Below, piece after piece: positions 14,919 through 20,744 of a stretch of DNA of 32,000 nt (its first letter is position 1; each line of letters opens with the position of its first letter). A model generated the notes under the pieces. That model was not told the DNA's origin, made no database searches, and saw only the letters and a program-made list of their open reading frames with translations. Source of the DNA: Ktedonobacterales bacterium (GTDB lineage Bacteria > Chloroflexota > Ktedonobacteria > Ktedonobacterales > JADMIN01); the NCBI GenBank assembly GCA_030167145.1, contig CP126532.1, forward strand, positions 2,280,001-2,312,000. The letters run 5' to 3'. Both the position numbers and the translations under genes were made by a program.

Positions 14919-16631
14919 ATGCGGCAATCTTCGGCTTCTCCGCCACGCGGCGCGGTGCGCGTGTGGCTCAGGATGGCGGCGCTGCCACTGGCGCTTTGCT
15001 TGCTGCTGGCGCTGATTGCGCTGGTGACGCCTGCGGTGGCTGCCTCGCCTGGGGCGGGCGCCACCGCACGAGCTGGCGGCGCAGTGCTGGCCGAGCGCGC
15101 GGCGCTGCGCACACCCGCCAGCTTCGCGCATACGCTGCACGTGCCCACCGACTACCCGACGATCCAGGCGGCGGTGGATGCGGCGCAGCCCGGCGACCTG
15201 GTCTTGATCGCGCCGGGGGTCTACCACGAAGCGGTCAAGGTCAAGAATCCGGGCATCACGATTCGCGGGGTAGACCGCAATAGCGTGATTCTGGACGGGC
15301 AATCGAAGCTGCCGAATGGCTTTACGGTGCAGGCGGACAATGTCATCATCGAGAATATGACCGCGCACCACTACCTGGGTAACGGCTTTTTCTGGCAGTA
15401 TGTGCATGGGTATCGTGGCAGTTACCTGACGGCCTACGACAACGGCGACTACGGCATCTACGCTTTCGGCGCGATTACTGGGGAGTTCGACCATAGCTAC
15501 GCTTCGGGCAGCCCGGATTCGGGGTTCTACATTGGCCAGTGCTATCCGTGTGATGCGCTGATTACCGATGTGAAATCGGAGTGGAATGGGCTGGGCTATT
15601 CCGGCACGAACGCGGGTGGCAATCTGATTATTCAGAACTCGGAGTGGGATTTGAATGGCGCGGGAGTGGTGCCGAACACGCTGGATACGGAGAAGTATCC
15701 GCCGGAGCATGGCACGACGGTCCGCAACAATCTGGTCCACGATAACGGCAATCCCGATGCGCCCGCGAACAAGTCTACGCATCCGGCGATTGGCGCGGGC
15801 ATCGCGGTGCCGGGCGGCGACCTGAATTATATCACCGGCAATACCGTCTGGAACAACGCGGACTACGGCATTCTGGTGGTGGGGAATGTGGACGAACACT
15901 TGTGGCTGGCGTCGGGCAATGTGGTGACGGGCAACACGGTGAAGGGGTCGGGCATTGCGGACCTGGCGCTGGGCGGGCCGACTGGCGCGAACAATTGCTT
16001 CAGCGACAATACGGCGGCGACGACGCTGCCGCCGCTGCTGGAGGTGACGCATGCGTGTGGCTCGCCGCTGGCGCTGAATGGCGGCGGCGATATGAGCGTG
16101 ACGCTGAATCTGCTCGCGGTCTATATGAATACGGCGGGCGGGAGCTATACGCCGCGAGATTACCGGCTGCTGCCCGCGCCGCCCGCGCAGGCGAACATGC
16201 CGGACATCACGGTTGGTCCCGCGCCGATCTTCACCGAAGACTTCCCGATTGATGATTCGCCCACCGGCGCGCTGCCCGCCGCCGTGGGTAAAGGAGGCTC
16301 CGCTATGCTCGCGCCGTTTGGCTTCACCAGCTATTCGATTGTTCAGGTGCTGCTGGGTCTGTATGGGAACTGGTCGTTCTTCGCGCTATATGCGGTTTGG
16401 CTGGCAATTGCCTGCGTGGAGTTGTCGCGGCGGGATGATCTCTCTGGCGGGCGCAAGCTGGGGCTGGGCGCGCTGGTGGTGGGCATCCCGGTGATCGGGG
16501 CGATTGTGTACTATTTCACGGCGTCGAAGCTGAGCCGGGGATTCCGGCTGGCGCTGGTGGTGGGCGCGCCGCTGCTGCTGCTGGCGCTGACGGTGCTGCT
16601 GCTGGTGGTGGCGTCGCAGACGTTGGGGTAG
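14919..16631 (+). CDS. Secreted right-handed beta-helix (NosD/CASH-like) protein with C-terminal PLDc_N-type membrane anchor
   Basis: ATG 14919 with AAGGGAG 8-9 nt upstream. Signal peptide ...LALIALVTPAVAA. YPTIQAAVDAAQPGDLVLIAPGVYHE start, followed by repeated N/G-rich beta-helix turns. C-terminus WLAIACVELSRRDDLSGGRKLGLGALVVGIPVIGAIVYYF plus a final TM segment. Confidence 0.8.
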   Translation: MRQSSASPPRGAVRVWLRMAALPLALCLLLALIALVTPAVAASPGAGATARAGGAVLAERAALRTPASFAHTLHVPTDYPTIQAAVDAAQPGDLVLIAPGVYHEAVKVKNPGITIRGVDRNSVILDGQSKLPNGFTVQADNVIIENMTAHHYLGNGFFWQYVHGYRGSYLTAYDNGDYGIYAFGAITGEFDHSYASGSPDSGFYIGQCYPCDALITDVKSEWNGLGYSGTNAGGNLIIQNSEWDLNGAGVVPNTLDTEKYPPEHGTTVRNNLVHDNGNPDAPANKSTHPAIGAGIAVPGGDLNYITGNTVWNNADYGILVVGNVDEHLWLASGNVVTGNTVKGSGIADLALGGPTGANNCFSDNTAATTLPPLLEVTHACGSPLALNGGGDMSVTLNLLAVYMNTAGGSYTPRDYRLLPAPPAQANMPDITVGPAPIFTEDFPIDDSPTGALPAAVGKGGSAMLAPFGFTSYSIVQVLLGLYGNWSFFALYAVWLAIACVELSRRDDLSGGRKLGLGALVVGIPVIGAIVYYFTASKLSRGFRLALVVGAPLLLLALTVLLLVVASQTLG

Positions 16632-16673
16632 ACCTAACCCCCTGCCCCCTTCCCTGCGAGGGAAGGGGGTTTT
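16632..16673 (+). terminator. Intrinsic terminator; also copy A of the REP-like element
   Basis: Stem CCCCCTTCCCT (16645-16655) / AGGGAAGGGGG (16659-16669), loop GCG, then TTTT. Starts 1 nt after the stop codon at 16631. Confidence 0.75.
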
Positions 16674-16679
16674 CGCGCT

Positions 16680-17270
16680 CTCGGCCATAAATGGCCGGAG
16701 CACAGGCGTACAGGCATGAATGCCGGAGTGAGTACAGTGACCGGAGTGGCCGAATTTCATTTTTCGCCGCAGGTGGCAGTTGCCGATATGGCCGATTTTC
16801 TTTGGGGTGAATGACGGGATGTGGCTGGAAATGACGGGAGATGGGGGGAGATTTTTCGCCGTTTTCGCCGCAATTGCGTGTTGATTGGAGTTGCCAGAGT
16901 TGCCGATATGGCCGATTTTTGAGATTGCGCGCGGAGGGCAAGTGGGTGATGGGGGCAGTTCTCGGCCTGAAGCGCCGAGGGTAATCGTGTCCGTAGGGGC
17001 GGCGCGGTGAGGCGAGGGAGTTGCCGATTCTGCCGATTTTCGCCGCGCTGGCAGACAGGAATGTCTGCCCCACTGATGGCCGCAATGGCCGCAGATGCAG
17101 TTGCCGATGTTGCCGATGTTGCCGATTTTTGGGTTGTGCATTTTTTTCGCCGTTTTCGCCGCAATTGCGCGTTGCCGATTTCGCTGGTGAATGCAGAGCG
17201 CCGCTCCTCCGGGGTGTGGGAGGGAGCGGCGCCGTGTTGTGGCTCACCGAGGGTGTTGTGCTGCCTGGAG
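16680..17270. repeat. Repeat-dense non-coding locus: five clusters of 9-bp units (GTTGCCGAT / ATGGCCGAT / TCTGCCGAT) plus longer direct repeats
   Basis: Three perfect tandem GTTGCCGAT units at 17100-17126. Further 9-bp clusters at 16779-16796, 16889-16916, 17019-17037 and 17171-17179. Perfect 22-nt repeat AGTTGCCGATATGGCCGATTTT at 16778-16799 and 16898-16919. 32-nt repeat TTTTTCGCCGTTTTCGCCGCAATTGCG(T/C)GTTG at 16852-16883 and 17143-17174 (31/32). CCGGAG motif three times at 16695-16746. Hairpins at 17050-17069 and 17198-17232. Confidence 0.85.
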
Positions 17271-17276
17271 ATAATA

Positions 17277-17292
17277 TAGAACATATGTTCTA
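17277..17292. promoter_or_regulatory. Perfect Cheo-type LexA (SOS) box TAGAACATATGTTCTA
   Basis: 16-bp perfect palindrome matching GAAC-N4-GTTC. It is the only such site in the window. It abuts a perfect TTGACA hexamer (17295-17300) and lies 113 nt upstream of the antitoxin ATG. Confidence 0.6.
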
Positions 17293-17404
17293 GGTTGACA
17301 AGGAAGGAGGGCGGGGTATCTGGCGGAGATGGCGTGATTCCACTGTGTGCTACACTGCAACGGAGCGGAGGAAGCAACACACATAGGCAAGAGGAGTGTC
17401 ATCC

Positions 17405-17746
17405 ATGGCAACGGAGGTTCATCTCGAAGCTATCGTCCAGACGGGCGGGAAGATCGAGCTTGCTCTCCCCGACCTCATGCCTGGCCAGAGAGTCAAGGTT
17501 ACCATTGAGATCGCAGACGAGACTTCGGCTACTACTGCGTGGGAACAAGAGCATGGGCAAGATACAACGCCTGCTCCACCACGCCGGTATACGGCCCTCG
17601 AACTGATGAAGCTGCCACTGGCGGAGCGCCATCGCATCTTGGAGGAAGCTGCTGAAGAAGCTGCCGAAGAATATCGCACAAACCCAGAACTGACAGATTT
17701 TGAGGCCTTCGGGGAGGACGATTTGTATGACGACCATCCCGAATAG
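17405..17746 (+). CDS. Putative type II antitoxin (MazE position), acidic C-terminus
   Basis: ATG 17405 with GAGGAG 9 nt upstream. Small protein with an N-terminal beta-rich segment (VHLEAIVQTGGKIELALPDLMPGQRVKVTIEI) and an acidic helical tail. Its 3' end overlaps the toxin start by 20 nt. Confidence 0.65.
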   Translation: MATEVHLEAIVQTGGKIELALPDLMPGQRVKVTIEIADETSATTAWEQEHGQDTTPAPPRRYTALELMKLPLAERHRILEEAAEEAAEEYRTNPELTDFEAFGEDDLYDDHPE

Positions 17747-18080
17747 AGGCGAGATATGGATGGTCCAGTTCGATCCACAAGTGGCAGAAGAAATCGGCAA
17801 GTTACGACCTGCTGTTGTCGTCAGCGTGCCTGCCGTGGGGCGATTGCCGCTGCGGATCGTCGTCCCACTCACTGACTGGAAGCCGCGTTATGCGAATTTC
17901 CGGTGGTTCATTCATGTCACACGGACAGCAGAGGATGGCTTGGCGAAAGACTCTGGCGCAGACGCTTTTCAGATAGAGTCATTATCCATCCAGCGTTTTC
18001 GGAGTAAGCTCGGCATAGTCACAACAGCACAGATAGATGAAATTGCCGCTGCCATCGCGCTCTGTGTCGGTATGCCATAG
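17727..18080 (+). CDS. mazF: Type II toxin, PemK/MazF family endoribonuclease
   Basis: PNRGEIWMVQFDPQVAEEIGKLRPAVVVS is the family's signature N-terminus. ATG 17727 with GGAGG about 10 nt upstream. Confidence 0.88.
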   Translation: MTTIPNRGEIWMVQFDPQVAEEIGKLRPAVVVSVPAVGRLPLRIVVPLTDWKPRYANFRWFIHVTRTAEDGLAKDSGADAFQIESLSIQRFRSKLGIVTTAQIDEIAAAIALCVGMP

Positions 18081-18154
18081 AGGCCGTCAAGGAATACACC
18101 ACATATATTGCGCCCGCGCTGAAGACGTTTACGTTTGGGAGCTAGGGGCAGAAA

Positions 18155-18190
18155 CCCAACCCCCGACCCCTTCCCTACAAGGGAAGGGGT
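18155..18190. repeat. REP-like element copy B (CCCAACCCCCGACCCCTTCCCT-ACA-AGGGAAGGGGT); probable bidirectional terminator
   Basis: 10-bp stem 18167-18176 / 18180-18189, between the convergent mazF (stop 18080) and the lipoprotein gene (stop 18202). Confidence 0.6.
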
Positions 18191-18201
18191 GGCCAATACC
18201 T

Positions 18202-18855
18202 CTAGGCGGTGGGGGTGGGAAGCTTGCCGTAGATCCAATTGGGTTCGTAGGCGGGGCGCAGCCAGACGCGGTTGTACGTGGCCCAGGCGGTGTCGGGGGT
18301 GAGGGAATTCCACGCGAAGTGGGCCGCTGTGCTGGCGTTGAGGATGGCGGCTCCGTAGGAATCGGTGTAGGTGTTGCCGTAGTCGTCGAAGATTGGCCCC
18401 TGGATGGTGACGGTGATCTCGTCGAGGGTGATGTTGGGCGTGGCGTCGGGCGTCCAGAGGGCATGCTGCGCCTGGAAGCAGAGCGCCATGGTGAGTTCAT
18501 GCGCGGCGTTGACTTGGGCAATGGTGAGTGGTACGTCGCTGCTGCTGAGGGCGCCGGTGATGGCGAGGGTGTGGCGTTGTGGGTCGTAGGTGGCGGTGGT
18601 GCGCGCGACGGCGCTGCCGAAGGCTTGCTGCGCGTGGAGGGCGAAGAGTTGTTGCGTGGTCGGGGTGGCATCAGGCGCACTGGGGGTGGCTGTCGCGCGT
18701 GATGTGTGGCGGCTGGCGCTGGATGTGGGCGCGCAGCCGCCAGCGGCGAGGATGGTGAGGAGCGCGAGCAGGGCGACACAGAGGCCGCGAGGGGCGCGCT
18801 GTGCGTGATGGGCGGGGATTCCGCGAAGATGGTTCAGCATGGAAGAGATGCGCAT
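18202..18855 (-). CDS. Hypothetical lipoprotein
   Basis: ATG 18855 with AAGGAGG upstream. Signal peptide plus lipobox LTILAAGGC, then an S/T/P-rich linker and a globular domain with no motif I recognise. Confidence 0.65.
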   Translation of the reverse strand: MRISSMLNHLRGIPAHHAQRAPRGLCVALLALLTILAAGGCAPTSSASRHTSRATATPSAPDATPTTQQLFALHAQQAFGSAVARTTATYDPQRHTLAITGALSSSDVPLTIAQVNAAHELTMALCFQAQHALWTPDATPNITLDEITVTIQGPIFDDYGNTYTDSYGAAILNASTAAHFAWNSLTPDTAWATYNRVWLRPAYEPNWIYGKLPTPTA

Positions 18856-20708: not shown

Positions 20709-20744
20709 CCTAACCCCCAACCCCTTCCCTTGTAGGGAAGGGGT
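20709..20744. repeat. REP-like element copy C (CCTAACCCCCAACCCCTTCCCT-TGT-AGGGAAGGGGT)
   Basis: 10-bp stem 20721-20730 / 20734-20743, with the same conserved 5' flank as copies A and B. Confidence 0.6.

What the first reader, a model, noticed from the sequence alone, without database searches (positions are those of the whole stretch)
17277..18080. The only perfect Cheo-type LexA box in the window sits upstream of the mazEF-like toxin-antitoxin operon
TAGAACATATGTTCTA (17277-17292) is a 16-bp perfect palindrome matching the Gram-positive/Chloroflexi-type SOS operator core GAAC-N4-GTTC. A manual scan of all GAAC occurrences found no other match in 32 kb. It lies 2 nt upstream of a perfect TTGACA hexamer (17295-17300; possible -10 TATCTG at 17317-17322). 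It is 56 nt upstream of an extended -10-like TGCTACACT (17348-17356), ahead of the overlapping antitoxin and MazF genes. SOS-controlled toxin modules are known in E. coli (for example tisB, symE, yafNO and dinJ-yafQ). A LexA-gated MazF would link DNA damage to mRNA cleavage in this lineage. The adjacent iteron-like array might add a second regulatory layer.
Basis: partly seen in the sequence, partly recalled or inferred. Interest (0 to 1): 0.6.

Follow-up and report, generated by a model that had tools for sequence, protein, structure and literature searches.

The report
SOS box belongs to neighbouring cassette
The perfect palindrome is very probably a real DNA-damage (LexA-type) operator, but it sits inside a promoter that fires away from the MazEF toxin-antitoxin genes into a dispersed repeat element, so the proposed damage-gated toxin is most likely an accident of neighbourhood.

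Summary
TAGAACATATGTTCTA (17277-17292) is the only GAAC-N4-GTTC in the window, and it is the top-scoring match in the whole 5.07-Mb genome to a matrix built from the genome's own intergenic boxes. The same motif lies beside the promoters of both lexA paralogues and recA, and just upstream of ruvB, a PolX-like gene, a Rad52-like gene and two DUF6504 genes.

The one sigma-70-like promoter overlapping the box points left: TTGTCA (17301-17296), a 17-nt spacer that contains the box, then TATATT (17278-17273). This promoter, the box and a conserved leader (GGTGAGCC, then a GCGCCGC-based hairpin) form a cassette present in 19 copies. In 13 copies the cassette reads into arrays of ATCGGCAAC/CGGCGAAAA units: 144 units downstream in the forward orientation, 0 reversed, 2 upstream. 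So the "iteron-like array" is what the boxed promoter transcribes.

mazEF has its own extended -10 (TGcTACACT, 17348-17356), which puts the box near -79. No homologous antitoxin-MazF locus examined carries a box, including the genome's second mazF.

Earlier agents of this scan described the cassette and the array family separately on other DNA of this genome. The polar link between them, and the reassignment of this box, are shown here.

The parts
17277..17292 (.). LexA-type (Cheo-type) operator, a perfect 16-bp palindrome with core GAAC-N4-GTTC at 17279-17290.
   Evidence: It is the top site genome-wide against the genome's own box matrix. The same motif occurs at lexA1, lexA2, recA and ruvB.
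17273..17301 (-). Leftward sigma-70-like promoter: -35 TTGTCA (17301-17296), a 17-nt spacer holding the box, and -10 TATATT (17278-17273). The predicted start is near 17266.
   Evidence: It is the only promoter-like site found in 16600-18300. The same layout occurs at about 15 other boxes. It aligns with 18 paralogous cassettes.
17186..17248 (-). Conserved cassette leader: GGTGAGCC (17248-17241), then a GC-rich hairpin (17233-17197) on a GCGCCGC/GCGGCGC base.
   Evidence: Fold of -34.7 kcal/mol, z -3.5. All 19 copies fold alike, with differing upper stems. The leader is conserved in three other genomes of the family.
16766..17189 (-). Repeat array. Read on the minus strand it carries ATCGGCAAC units and GCGGCGAAAACGGCGAAAA modules. 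It is one copy of a dispersed family.
   Evidence: 38 clusters genome-wide. Polarity relative to the cassettes is shown. A homologous copy is L012.
16633..16669 (.). REP-like GC hairpin between the array and the convergent beta-helix gene. It is the probable end of the leftward transcript.
   Evidence: Sequence. It appears as a stable hairpin in the 647-nt fold. A second copy lies at about 18155-18190.
17348..17356 (+). Probable mazEF promoter, an extended -10 TGcTACACT, 48 nt before the antitoxin ATG.
   Evidence: Sequence. TACACT is the -10 hexamer that the scan pairs with a -35 at lexA1 and at two other box sites. The homologous TA pair in L026 has TGcTATAAT 40 nt before its ATG. This assignment is an inference.
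17405..17746 (+). Antitoxin, 113 aa. The N-terminal part has no Pfam match. The C-terminal tail recurs next to MazF genes in many genomes.
17727..18080 (+). MazF/PemK-family toxin, 117 aa. It overlaps the antitoxin gene by 20 nt.
   Evidence: PF02452, E 2.8e-21. It is one of two such genes in the genome.

Best explanation
The palindrome is the LexA operator of a leftward promoter that heads a dispersed cassette-plus-array element. It is not the operator of mazEF.

In undamaged cells, LexA (one or both of the two intact paralogues) would occupy the spacer between TTGTCA and TATATT and block RNA polymerase. After DNA damage, RecA-stimulated LexA self-cleavage would free the promoter. Transcription would start near 17266 on the minus strand, pass the conserved GGUGAGCC motif and the GC hairpin (a promoter-proximal terminator or attenuator in other copies), and run into the roughly 420-nt ATCGGCAAC/CGGCGAAAA array. 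It would stop at the REP-like hairpin in front of the convergent beta-helix gene.

mazEF is transcribed divergently from its own extended -10 promoter about 50 nt behind the cassette's -35, and is probably autoregulated like other type II modules.

Shown: the sequence architecture, its 19-fold recurrence, its polarity, its conservation in other genera, and the absence of the box from homologous TA loci. Inferred: LexA binding, promoter activity, transcript ends, and the independence of mazEF.
For: 1. The motif is the organism's SOS box. lexA1 has TAGAACGTGAGTTCTA 3 nt after a TTGACA-18-TACACT promoter. lexA2 and recA have boxes 2 nt after TTGACG-17-TATAAT and TTGACG-17-TACAAT. ruvB, PolX-like, DinB_2, Rad52-like and two DUF6504 genes also follow boxes.
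2. The only promoter-like site in 16600-18300 is on the minus strand, with the box in its spacer.
3. The layout -35, N5, box, TATAnT recurs at about 15 sites.
4. Nineteen copies share a C-rich tract, the -35, the box, a TATACT -10, the GGTGAGCC leader and a hairpin. Ours is one of them. Every copy folds into a hairpin with a constant base and a variable, still-paired upper stem, mostly followed by a U-rich tail on that strand only.
5. Array units behind the cassettes number 144 forward, 0 reversed and 2 upstream. Thirteen of 19 cassettes have at least 4 units within 1.2 kb downstream, against a genome background of 0.11 per 1.2 kb.
6. L012 is a module-by-module homologue of our minus strand.
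7. Box plus leader is conserved in three other genomes from two other genera of the family, where it precedes genes whose translated motifs suggest primase/helicase-type functions (my reading, no Pfam scan run).
8. No box occurs at any homologous TA locus or at the second mazF, where the best score is 2.4 bits.
9. The homologous TA pair in L026 has TGcTATAAT at the position of our TGcTACACT.
Against: - There are no transcript or binding data. Every promoter is a consensus match.
- Our copy's hairpin lacks a clear U-tract (UCUGCAUUC), and no gene follows on that strand, so the product at this locus has no assigned function.
- The plus-strand TTGACA is a perfect hexamer only 2 nt from the box. 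A LexA dimer at about -45 of a weak TTGACA-16-TATCTG promoter could still dampen mazEF.
- Divergent promoters 50 nt apart can be coupled through supercoiling.
- The matrix ranking is partly circular.
- Several cassette boxes have a mismatched right half-site (GTCC, ATTC, GTAC), so a cassette-specific regulator other than LexA is not excluded.
Confidence: 0.65

Rival explanations
1. Shared operator. LexA bound at the box represses the leftward cassette promoter and also lowers mazEF transcription. It could do this by sitting just upstream of a rightward TTGACA-16-TATCTG promoter, or indirectly through promoter competition or supercoiling coupling.
For: TTGACA at 17295-17300 is perfect and lies 2 nt from the box. 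The two transcription units are back to back, with about 47 nt between the cassette's -35 and the mazEF -10. SOS-controlled TA modules exist elsewhere, for example yafNO and symE in E. coli and higBA in Caulobacter (papers listed).
Against: TATCTG lacks the conserved final T and matches only 3 of 6 positions, and the scan reports no plus-strand promoter. The TTGACA is the reverse reading of the cassette's own -35. No TA homologue has a box. In the three bona fide SOS promoters resolved here (lexA1, lexA2, recA) the box lies 2-3 nt after the -10, and in the cassettes it lies inside the spacer; it is never upstream of the -35.
Confidence: 0.15
2. One reading: the box is the dedicated LexA operator of mazEF, making MazF a damage-gated mRNA interferase.
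For: The box lies 113 nt upstream of the antitoxin ATG, and no other gene lies closer. recA in this genome also has its box more than 150 nt from the start codon.
Against: At recA the promoter lies directly against the box. Here the only promoter against the box points the other way. The box is part of a 19-copy cassette whose other copies have no link to TA genes. No TA homologue has a box.
Confidence: 0.05
3. The palindrome is bound by a regulator other than LexA, such as a cassette-specific or element-encoded repressor, or the MazE-like antitoxin. It resembles the SOS box only by descent or by chance.
For: The cassette boxes share more than the LexA half-sites: the consensus is tcGAACa.ATGTTCTATACT. 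Several have a degenerate right half. Type II antitoxins often bind palindromes near their promoters.
Against: The identical core and TA flanks occur at lexA1, recA, ruvB and other repair genes that are not cassette copies. The half-sites are kept while the N4 varies, both among copies and in other genera. Antitoxin homologues elsewhere have no such palindrome. A better candidate for an antitoxin operator is the direct repeat GCAACGGAG at 17357-17365 and 17408-17416.
Confidence: 0.1
4. Inert relic. The cassette and array form a decaying dispersed repeat with no current promoter or operator activity at this locus.
For: No gene lies downstream, the U-tract after the hairpin is degenerate, and the genes behind other arrays are unrelated housekeeping genes, at least one with its own promoter.
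Against: This copy has the best box in the genome (8 of 8 core positions plus perfect flanks) and a 10-of-12 promoter, which is not what decay predicts.
Confidence: 0.05

Closest known systems
Bacillus subtilis LexA (DinR) operators, the Cheo box CGAAC-N4-GTTCG, also reported for the Dehalococcoides LexA (from my own knowledge of the literature; not retrieved here)
   Same: The same GAAC-N4-GTTC inverted repeat. It is placed inside or directly after the core promoter. lexA is autoregulated and recA carries a box.
   Different: The flanks here prefer TA (TAGAAC...GTTCTA). The genome has two lexA paralogues. Many sites belong to a multi-copy cassette rather than to single repair genes.
SOS-controlled toxin modules: E. 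coli yafNO, dinJ-yafQ, tisB/istR, symE/symR (PMC2814082, PMC1891008) and Caulobacter higBA (bioRxiv 10.1101/2020.07.22.216945)
   Same: A LexA box lies near a toxin-antitoxin operon.
   Different: I did not read these papers (one search gave titles and abstracts only); from general knowledge of LexA repression I assume the operator overlaps the module's own promoter there. Here it overlaps a divergent promoter, lies at about -79 of the likely TA promoter, and is absent from every homologous TA locus examined.
BIME/REP mosaic elements of enterobacteria
   Same: Dispersed, intergenic, modular arrays of short repeats and hairpins in many copies, with no coding capacity.
   Different: The arrays here are polar and are headed by a promoter-operator-terminator cassette. 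I know of no BIME with its own SOS-type promoter.
LexA sites in front of small-RNA genes in Mycobacterium tuberculosis (ChIP-seq study, PMC3381160, abstract seen)
   Same: LexA binding sites that control non-coding transcripts rather than repair proteins.
   Different: Those are single loci, not a repeated cassette family with arrays.
SOS-controlled early promoters of temperate phages and satellites, for example GIL01 P1 (PMC4551915)
   Same: In relatives the same cassette precedes genes that look like primase/helicase-type genes of mobile elements (motifs read by eye). This suggests a mobile-element origin for the cassette.
   Different: At this locus the cassette drives no protein gene.

Membership tests
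LexA (Cheo-type) SOS operator | Inverted repeat GAAC-N4-GTTC | tested here: met
   Perfect core plus palindromic TA flanks at 17277-17292.
LexA (Cheo-type) SOS operator | Same motif at the organism's own lexA and recA promoters | tested here: met
   lexA1 has TAGAACGTGAGTTCTA, lexA2 has CTGAACTAATGTTCCA and recA has TAGAACTAATGTACTA, each 2-3 nt after a -10 hexamer.
LexA (Cheo-type) SOS operator | Operator overlaps a core promoter so that the bound repressor occludes RNA polymerase | tested here: met
   Met for the leftward promoter TTGTCA-17-TATATT, which holds the box in its spacer. This rests on consensus matching only.
LexA (Cheo-type) SOS operator | LexA binds the site and the transcript is damage-inducible | not testable with these tools
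   Needs EMSA or ChIP, and RNA measurements after mitomycin C or UV.
SOS-regulated toxin-antitoxin module | LexA operator overlaps the TA operon's own promoter | tested here: not met
   There is no plus-strand promoter at the box. The likely TA promoter TGcTACACT at 17348-17356 puts the box centre near -79 (inference).
SOS-regulated toxin-antitoxin module | The box-TA association is kept in homologous loci | tested here: not met
   No GAAC-N4-GTTC in the 19 same-order loci fetched around antitoxin homologues, best 6 of 8 upstream of the nine examined. No AGAAC-N4-GTTCT in any of the 43 homologue loci, including 24 from other phyla. The second mazF has a best score of 2.4 bits.
Type II MazEF toxin-antitoxin | PemK/MazF-fold toxin preceded by a small overlapping antitoxin gene | tested here: met
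   PF02452 at E 2.8e-21. The antitoxin stop at 17746 overlaps the MazF ATG at 17727.
Type II MazEF toxin-antitoxin | The antitoxin is recognisably related to partners of MazF elsewhere | tested here: met
   The C-terminal 55-113 tail recurs directly upstream of MazF homologues in several genomes of the order. The same tail occurs in other phyla, where the MazF neighbour was not checked. The N-terminal domain has no Pfam match.
Dispersed SOS-box promoter/leader cassette of this genome (described by an earlier agent of this scan) | -35, N5, box, TATAnT, then GGTGAGCC-N7-GCGCCGC hairpin, all on one strand | tested here: met
   Ours aligns with 18 other copies across all these blocks and folds like them.
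Dispersed mosaic repeat arrays of this genome | Clusters of GTTGCCGAT / TTTTCGCCG units in intergenic DNA | tested here: met
   Seven GTTGCCGAT units lie at 16779-17171. It is one of 38 such clusters genome-wide.

The most novel reading that the evidence does not exclude
A Ktedonobacterales genome has spread an SOS-operated promoter plus terminator-leader cassette, probably of mobile-element origin, to about 19 sites. At 13 of these it drives polar, non-coding arrays of 9-nt units. DNA damage would then switch on a whole family of repeat-array RNAs (protein sponges, antisense or read-through regulators) or expose arrays of DNA-binding sites. The roughly 19 extra operators could also buffer free LexA. 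The copy next to mazEF would be one node of that network, and could couple to the toxin module indirectly.
Probability: 0.3. Interest if true: 0.6.

Novelty: new variant of a known kind. Interest (0 to 1): 0.4.

Why it matters
For the finding as written, the result is a caution. The best SOS box in a genome can sit next to a toxin-antitoxin operon without controlling it, and promoter orientation and paralogue comparison decide the assignment. If this locus were annotated as an "SOS-regulated MazF", that label would probably be wrong.

The positive result is that the SOS regulon of this Chloroflexota lineage includes a multi-copy promoter-operator-leader cassette that heads non-coding repeat arrays. 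That is not part of the classical picture of LexA regulons. If it is transcribed, it gives a handle on what these abundant mosaic arrays do.

Tried and rejected
- **Rfam:** a scan of 16400-18400 at E up to 1 found nothing.
- **Minus-strand ORFs across the array** (251, 243 and 207 aa): rejected as coding. They translate the repeats, the spacings between units (120, 121, 80 and 9 nt) are not all in frame, and array length and content differ between copies.
- **Synteny in the two same-genus genomes:** only the beta-helix gene is shared, at about 70% DNA identity. The neighbours differ, so no with/without-insertion comparison is possible.
- **A plus-strand promoter overlapping the box:** I looked for GATAAT or TAATAT at 17270-17277 with a -35, and for TTGACA-16-TATCTG. 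None passes the scan.
- **Genes behind other arrays:** I expected repair functions. They turned out to be HisRS, TilS, lipoyl synthase, aldehyde dehydrogenase, a Ser/Thr kinase, hydantoinase and others, so the arrays are not SOS leaders of repair genes.
- **A strict cassette pattern across 169 genomes of the order:** it hit only 4 genomes. The pattern demands a perfect box, so this undercounts the true distribution.
- **Pfam on the antitoxin:** only a sub-threshold VasI hit, which I disregarded.

Full report
**1. Observation**

The sequence is as described.
- The perfect 16-bp palindrome TAGAACATATGTTCTA is at 17277-17292.
- TTGACA is at 17295-17300, TATCTG at 17317-17322 and TGCTACACT at 17348-17356.
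- A 113-aa ORF starts at ATG 17405, has an AGAGGAG ribosome-binding site 8 nt upstream, and ends at 17746.
- That ORF overlaps by 20 nt a 117-aa ORF (17727-18080), which is a PemK/MazF toxin (PF02452, E 2.8e-21).

GAAC-N4-GTTC occurs once in the 32 kb. That count alone is weak evidence, since 18 of 100 shuffles give at least one match.

**2. Is it the organism's SOS box?**

The window is G000:C1:2280001-2312000 of a single-contig genome of 5.07 Mb and 62.6% GC. The closest named relatives of the antitoxin are Ktedonobacterales MAGs.

The genome has two lexA genes. Both have the AAG cleavage motif and the Ser and Lys catalytic residues.
- lexA1 carries TAGAACGTGAGTTCTA 3 nt after a TTGACA-18-TACACT promoter.
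- lexA2 carries CTGAACTAATGTTCCA 2 nt after TTGACG-17-TATAAT.
- recA carries TAGAACTAATGTACTA 2 nt after TTGACG-17-TACAAT.

Of 71 core matches in the genome, 31 lie in the roughly 15% of DNA outside my crude gene calls. Genes behind such sites include ruvB, a PolX-like protein, DinB_2, a Rad52/22-family protein and two DUF6504 proteins.

A matrix built from the intergenic sites has the consensus TATAGAAC-ATAT-GTTCTATA. It ranks the window's site first in the genome at 29.2 bits. That rank is partly circular, because perfect-core sites seeded the matrix.

**3. Which promoter does the box belong to?**

The consensus scan of 16600-18300 finds one promoter-like site, and it is on the minus strand: TTGTCA (17301-17296), a 17-nt spacer, and TATATT (17278-17273). 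The 12-bp core lies inside the spacer.

Across the strong boxes of the genome there are two layouts.
- **Type 2:** the box lies 2-3 nt after the -10. This is seen at lexA1, lexA2, recA, one DUF6504 gene and others.
- **Type 1:** -35, N5, box, TATAnT, so the box lies in the spacer. This is seen at about 15 sites.

The window's site is a clean type 1, directed leftward and away from mazEF. Its proposed -10, TATCTG, fails the scan.

**4. The promoter is part of a multi-copy cassette**

Downstream of type-1 promoters there is a recurrent leader: CGGTGAGCC, about 7 nt, then GGCGCCGC opening a GC-rich hairpin that closes with GCGGCGC.

Nineteen copies combine a box matching at least 7 of 8 core positions with this leader. 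They align from a C-rich tract about 10 nt upstream of the -35 through the hairpin. On the plus strand of the window, that places the cassette boundary near 17315.

All 19 copies fold into a strong hairpin. The base is constant, while the upper stem differs in sequence and length and stays paired. Most are followed by a U-rich tail on that strand only. Our copy folds at -34.7 kcal/mol, z -3.5, although its tail (UCUGCAUUC) is a poor U-tract.

A strict pattern (perfect box, TATAnT, leader) also hits three other genomes, belonging to two other genera of the same family. There the hairpin has a clear U-tract. The cassette precedes genes whose translated sequence motifs suggest primase/helicase-type functions; I read these by eye and ran no family scan on them. 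The half-sites are kept while the N4 varies, both among the paralogues and across genera, as expected for a selected operator.

**5. The array is what the cassette transcribes**

The "iteron-like" GTTGCCGAT array is not unique. The genome holds 38 clusters of at least 3 units, and 75 copies of the 18-mer TTTTCGCCGTTTTCGCCG.

Wherever a box-type promoter lies next to a cluster, it reads into the cluster so that the transcript carries AUCGGCAAC. Over the 19 cassettes the counts are:
- 144 forward units within 1.2 kb downstream;
- 0 reversed units downstream;
- 2 units upstream;
- a genome background of 0.11 units per 1.2 kb.

Thirteen cassettes have at least 4 units downstream and none has that many upstream.

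The copy upstream of a hydantoinase gene (L012) matches our minus strand module by module. It has the promoter-box, GGTGAGC, the hairpin, a second hairpin (ggggcagacattcYtgtctgcc), AAAATCGGCAGMATCGGCAAC units and GCGGCGAAAACGGCGAAAA modules. The gene behind it has its own extended -10, TGaTACAAT.

In most copies a co-directional gene follows the array. These genes are unrelated housekeeping or metabolic genes: HisRS, TilS, lipoyl synthase, aldehyde dehydrogenase, a Ser/Thr kinase, a molybdoenzyme and hydantoinase. So the composite behaves as a dispersed intergenic element, not as a dedicated leader for repair genes.

At our locus the transcript would meet the REP-like hairpin at 16633-16669 and then the 3' end of the convergent beta-helix gene. 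No Rfam family matches. The long minus-strand ORFs are translations of the repeats.

**6. The mazEF side**

- The best candidate promoter is the extended -10 TGcTACACT (17348-17356). The scan pairs TACACT as the -10 with a -35 at lexA1 and at two other box sites.
- The closest full-length homologue pair is in a same-genus genome (L026; antitoxin 47% and MazF 43% identical). It has TGcTATAAT 40 nt before its ATG, against 48 nt here.
- With a start near 17363, the box centre lies at about -79, outside any RNA polymerase footprint.
- None of the 19 same-order loci fetched around antitoxin homologues contains GAAC-N4-GTTC, and the best match upstream of the nine examined is 6 of 8 core positions.
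- None of the 24 loci from other phyla contains AGAAC-N4-GTTCT.
- The genome's only other mazF (C1:3403041-3403358) has nothing above 2.4 bits within 2.4 kb.
- A direct repeat GCAACGGAG (17357-17365 and 17408-17416) brackets the region from the promoter to the start codon. It is a more natural candidate for antitoxin autoregulation. This is speculative.

**7. Conclusion and odds**

- **About 0.65:** the box is the operator of the leftward cassette, and mazEF is independent.
- **About 0.15:** a shared operator. LexA at about -45 of a weak rightward promoter, or supercoiling and competition between back-to-back promoters, also affects mazEF.
- **About 0.05:**
- **About 0.10:** a non-LexA binder.
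- **About 0.05:** an inert relic.

Nothing here is experimental. Promoters, starts and LexA binding are all inferred from sequence architecture, recurrence and conservation.

**8. Relation to earlier notes of this scan**

Earlier agents working on other windows of this genome described two things separately:
- a portable SOS-box promoter with a leader hairpin in front of phage-derived genes;
- a dispersed mosaic array family likened to BIMEs.

I used those notes as leads and re-derived both features from the genome.

**9. Literature**

SOS-controlled toxin modules are known in E. coli and Caulobacter (PMC2814082, PMC1891008, bioRxiv 10.1101/2020.07.22.216945). LexA sites at small-RNA genes are known in M. 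tuberculosis (PMC3381160). My three full-text searches surfaced no paper describing LexA boxes embedded in a dispersed repeat cassette or an SOS regulon in Ktedonobacteria. The library is incomplete, the third query was loose and only its 12 top-ranked hits were inspected, so this is not proof of absence.

Noticed in passing
G000:C1:3784931-3785570 (L001:1465-2106 +) and C1:467709-468365 (L002:1042-1698 -): There are two intact lexA paralogues. Both have the AAG cleavage site and the Ser/Lys dyad, and each has its own GAAC-N4-GTTC box directly after its -10. Which one binds the cassette boxes is unknown.
   Followed up: partly
L025, L029, L031, L035 and G000:C1:3403041-3404830 (-): In relatives, and at this genome's second mazF, the toxin's partner is a protein of about 400-480 aa with an N-terminal XRE-type HTH (by sequence motif), encoded after what looks like the 3' end of an hsdM-like methylase gene (read by eye; no family scan run). 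It ends in the same roughly 55-aa tail as the short antitoxin here. The MazF-neutralising tail therefore appears to be a portable module.
   Followed up: partly
window 17345-17365 and 17396-17416: A direct repeat (GTGTGCTACACTGCAACGGAG and GTGTCATCCATGGCAACGGAG, 76% identical) spans the mazEF -10 and the start codon. It is a possible antitoxin operator.
   Followed up: no
window 16633-16669, 18155-18190 and about 20709-20744: REP-like GC hairpins (CCCCTTCCCT-loop-AGGGAAGGGG) bracket the array-plus-mazEF segment. Similar hairpins occur in relatives' cassette loci (L051, L054) and after the leader in the copy at C1:3094975.
   Followed up: no
G000:C1:1502108 (L006:1501): A strong box (AATAGAACATTAGTTCTAAT, 26.3 bits) lies between two convergent genes, with no downstream gene on either strand. 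It is an orphan SOS site, possibly for a small RNA or small ORF.
   Followed up: no
L004:1614-1991 and L018:1497-1889: Two DUF6504 genes each sit behind a perfect box. One shares the identical core GAACATATGTTC with the window's site.
   Followed up: partly
L004:1330-1370 and 2230-2340: The genome is rich in other short intergenic tandem repeats (TGGGGACACA x4, GGACGAAA x8, GTGGAGTCATT x3) that are unrelated in sequence to the GTTGCCGAT arrays.
   Followed up: no
G000:C1:1962672, 4224000, 3739223, 2496318, 4894548: There is a cassette subfamily with near-identical boxes (GAACAAATATTC and close variants), the -10 TATACT, and a longer hairpin with a CTGGGC...GCCCCA upper stem. These copies look recently duplicated.
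   Followed up: no
L050, L051, L052, L054 (other genera of the family): The same box-promoter-leader-terminator cassette precedes genes whose translated motifs suggest primase/helicase-type functions (GDPGLGKS; AARAYTRRGWRVVP; read by eye, no family scan). This suggests the cassette originated as an SOS-controlled early promoter of a mobile element.
   Followed up: partly
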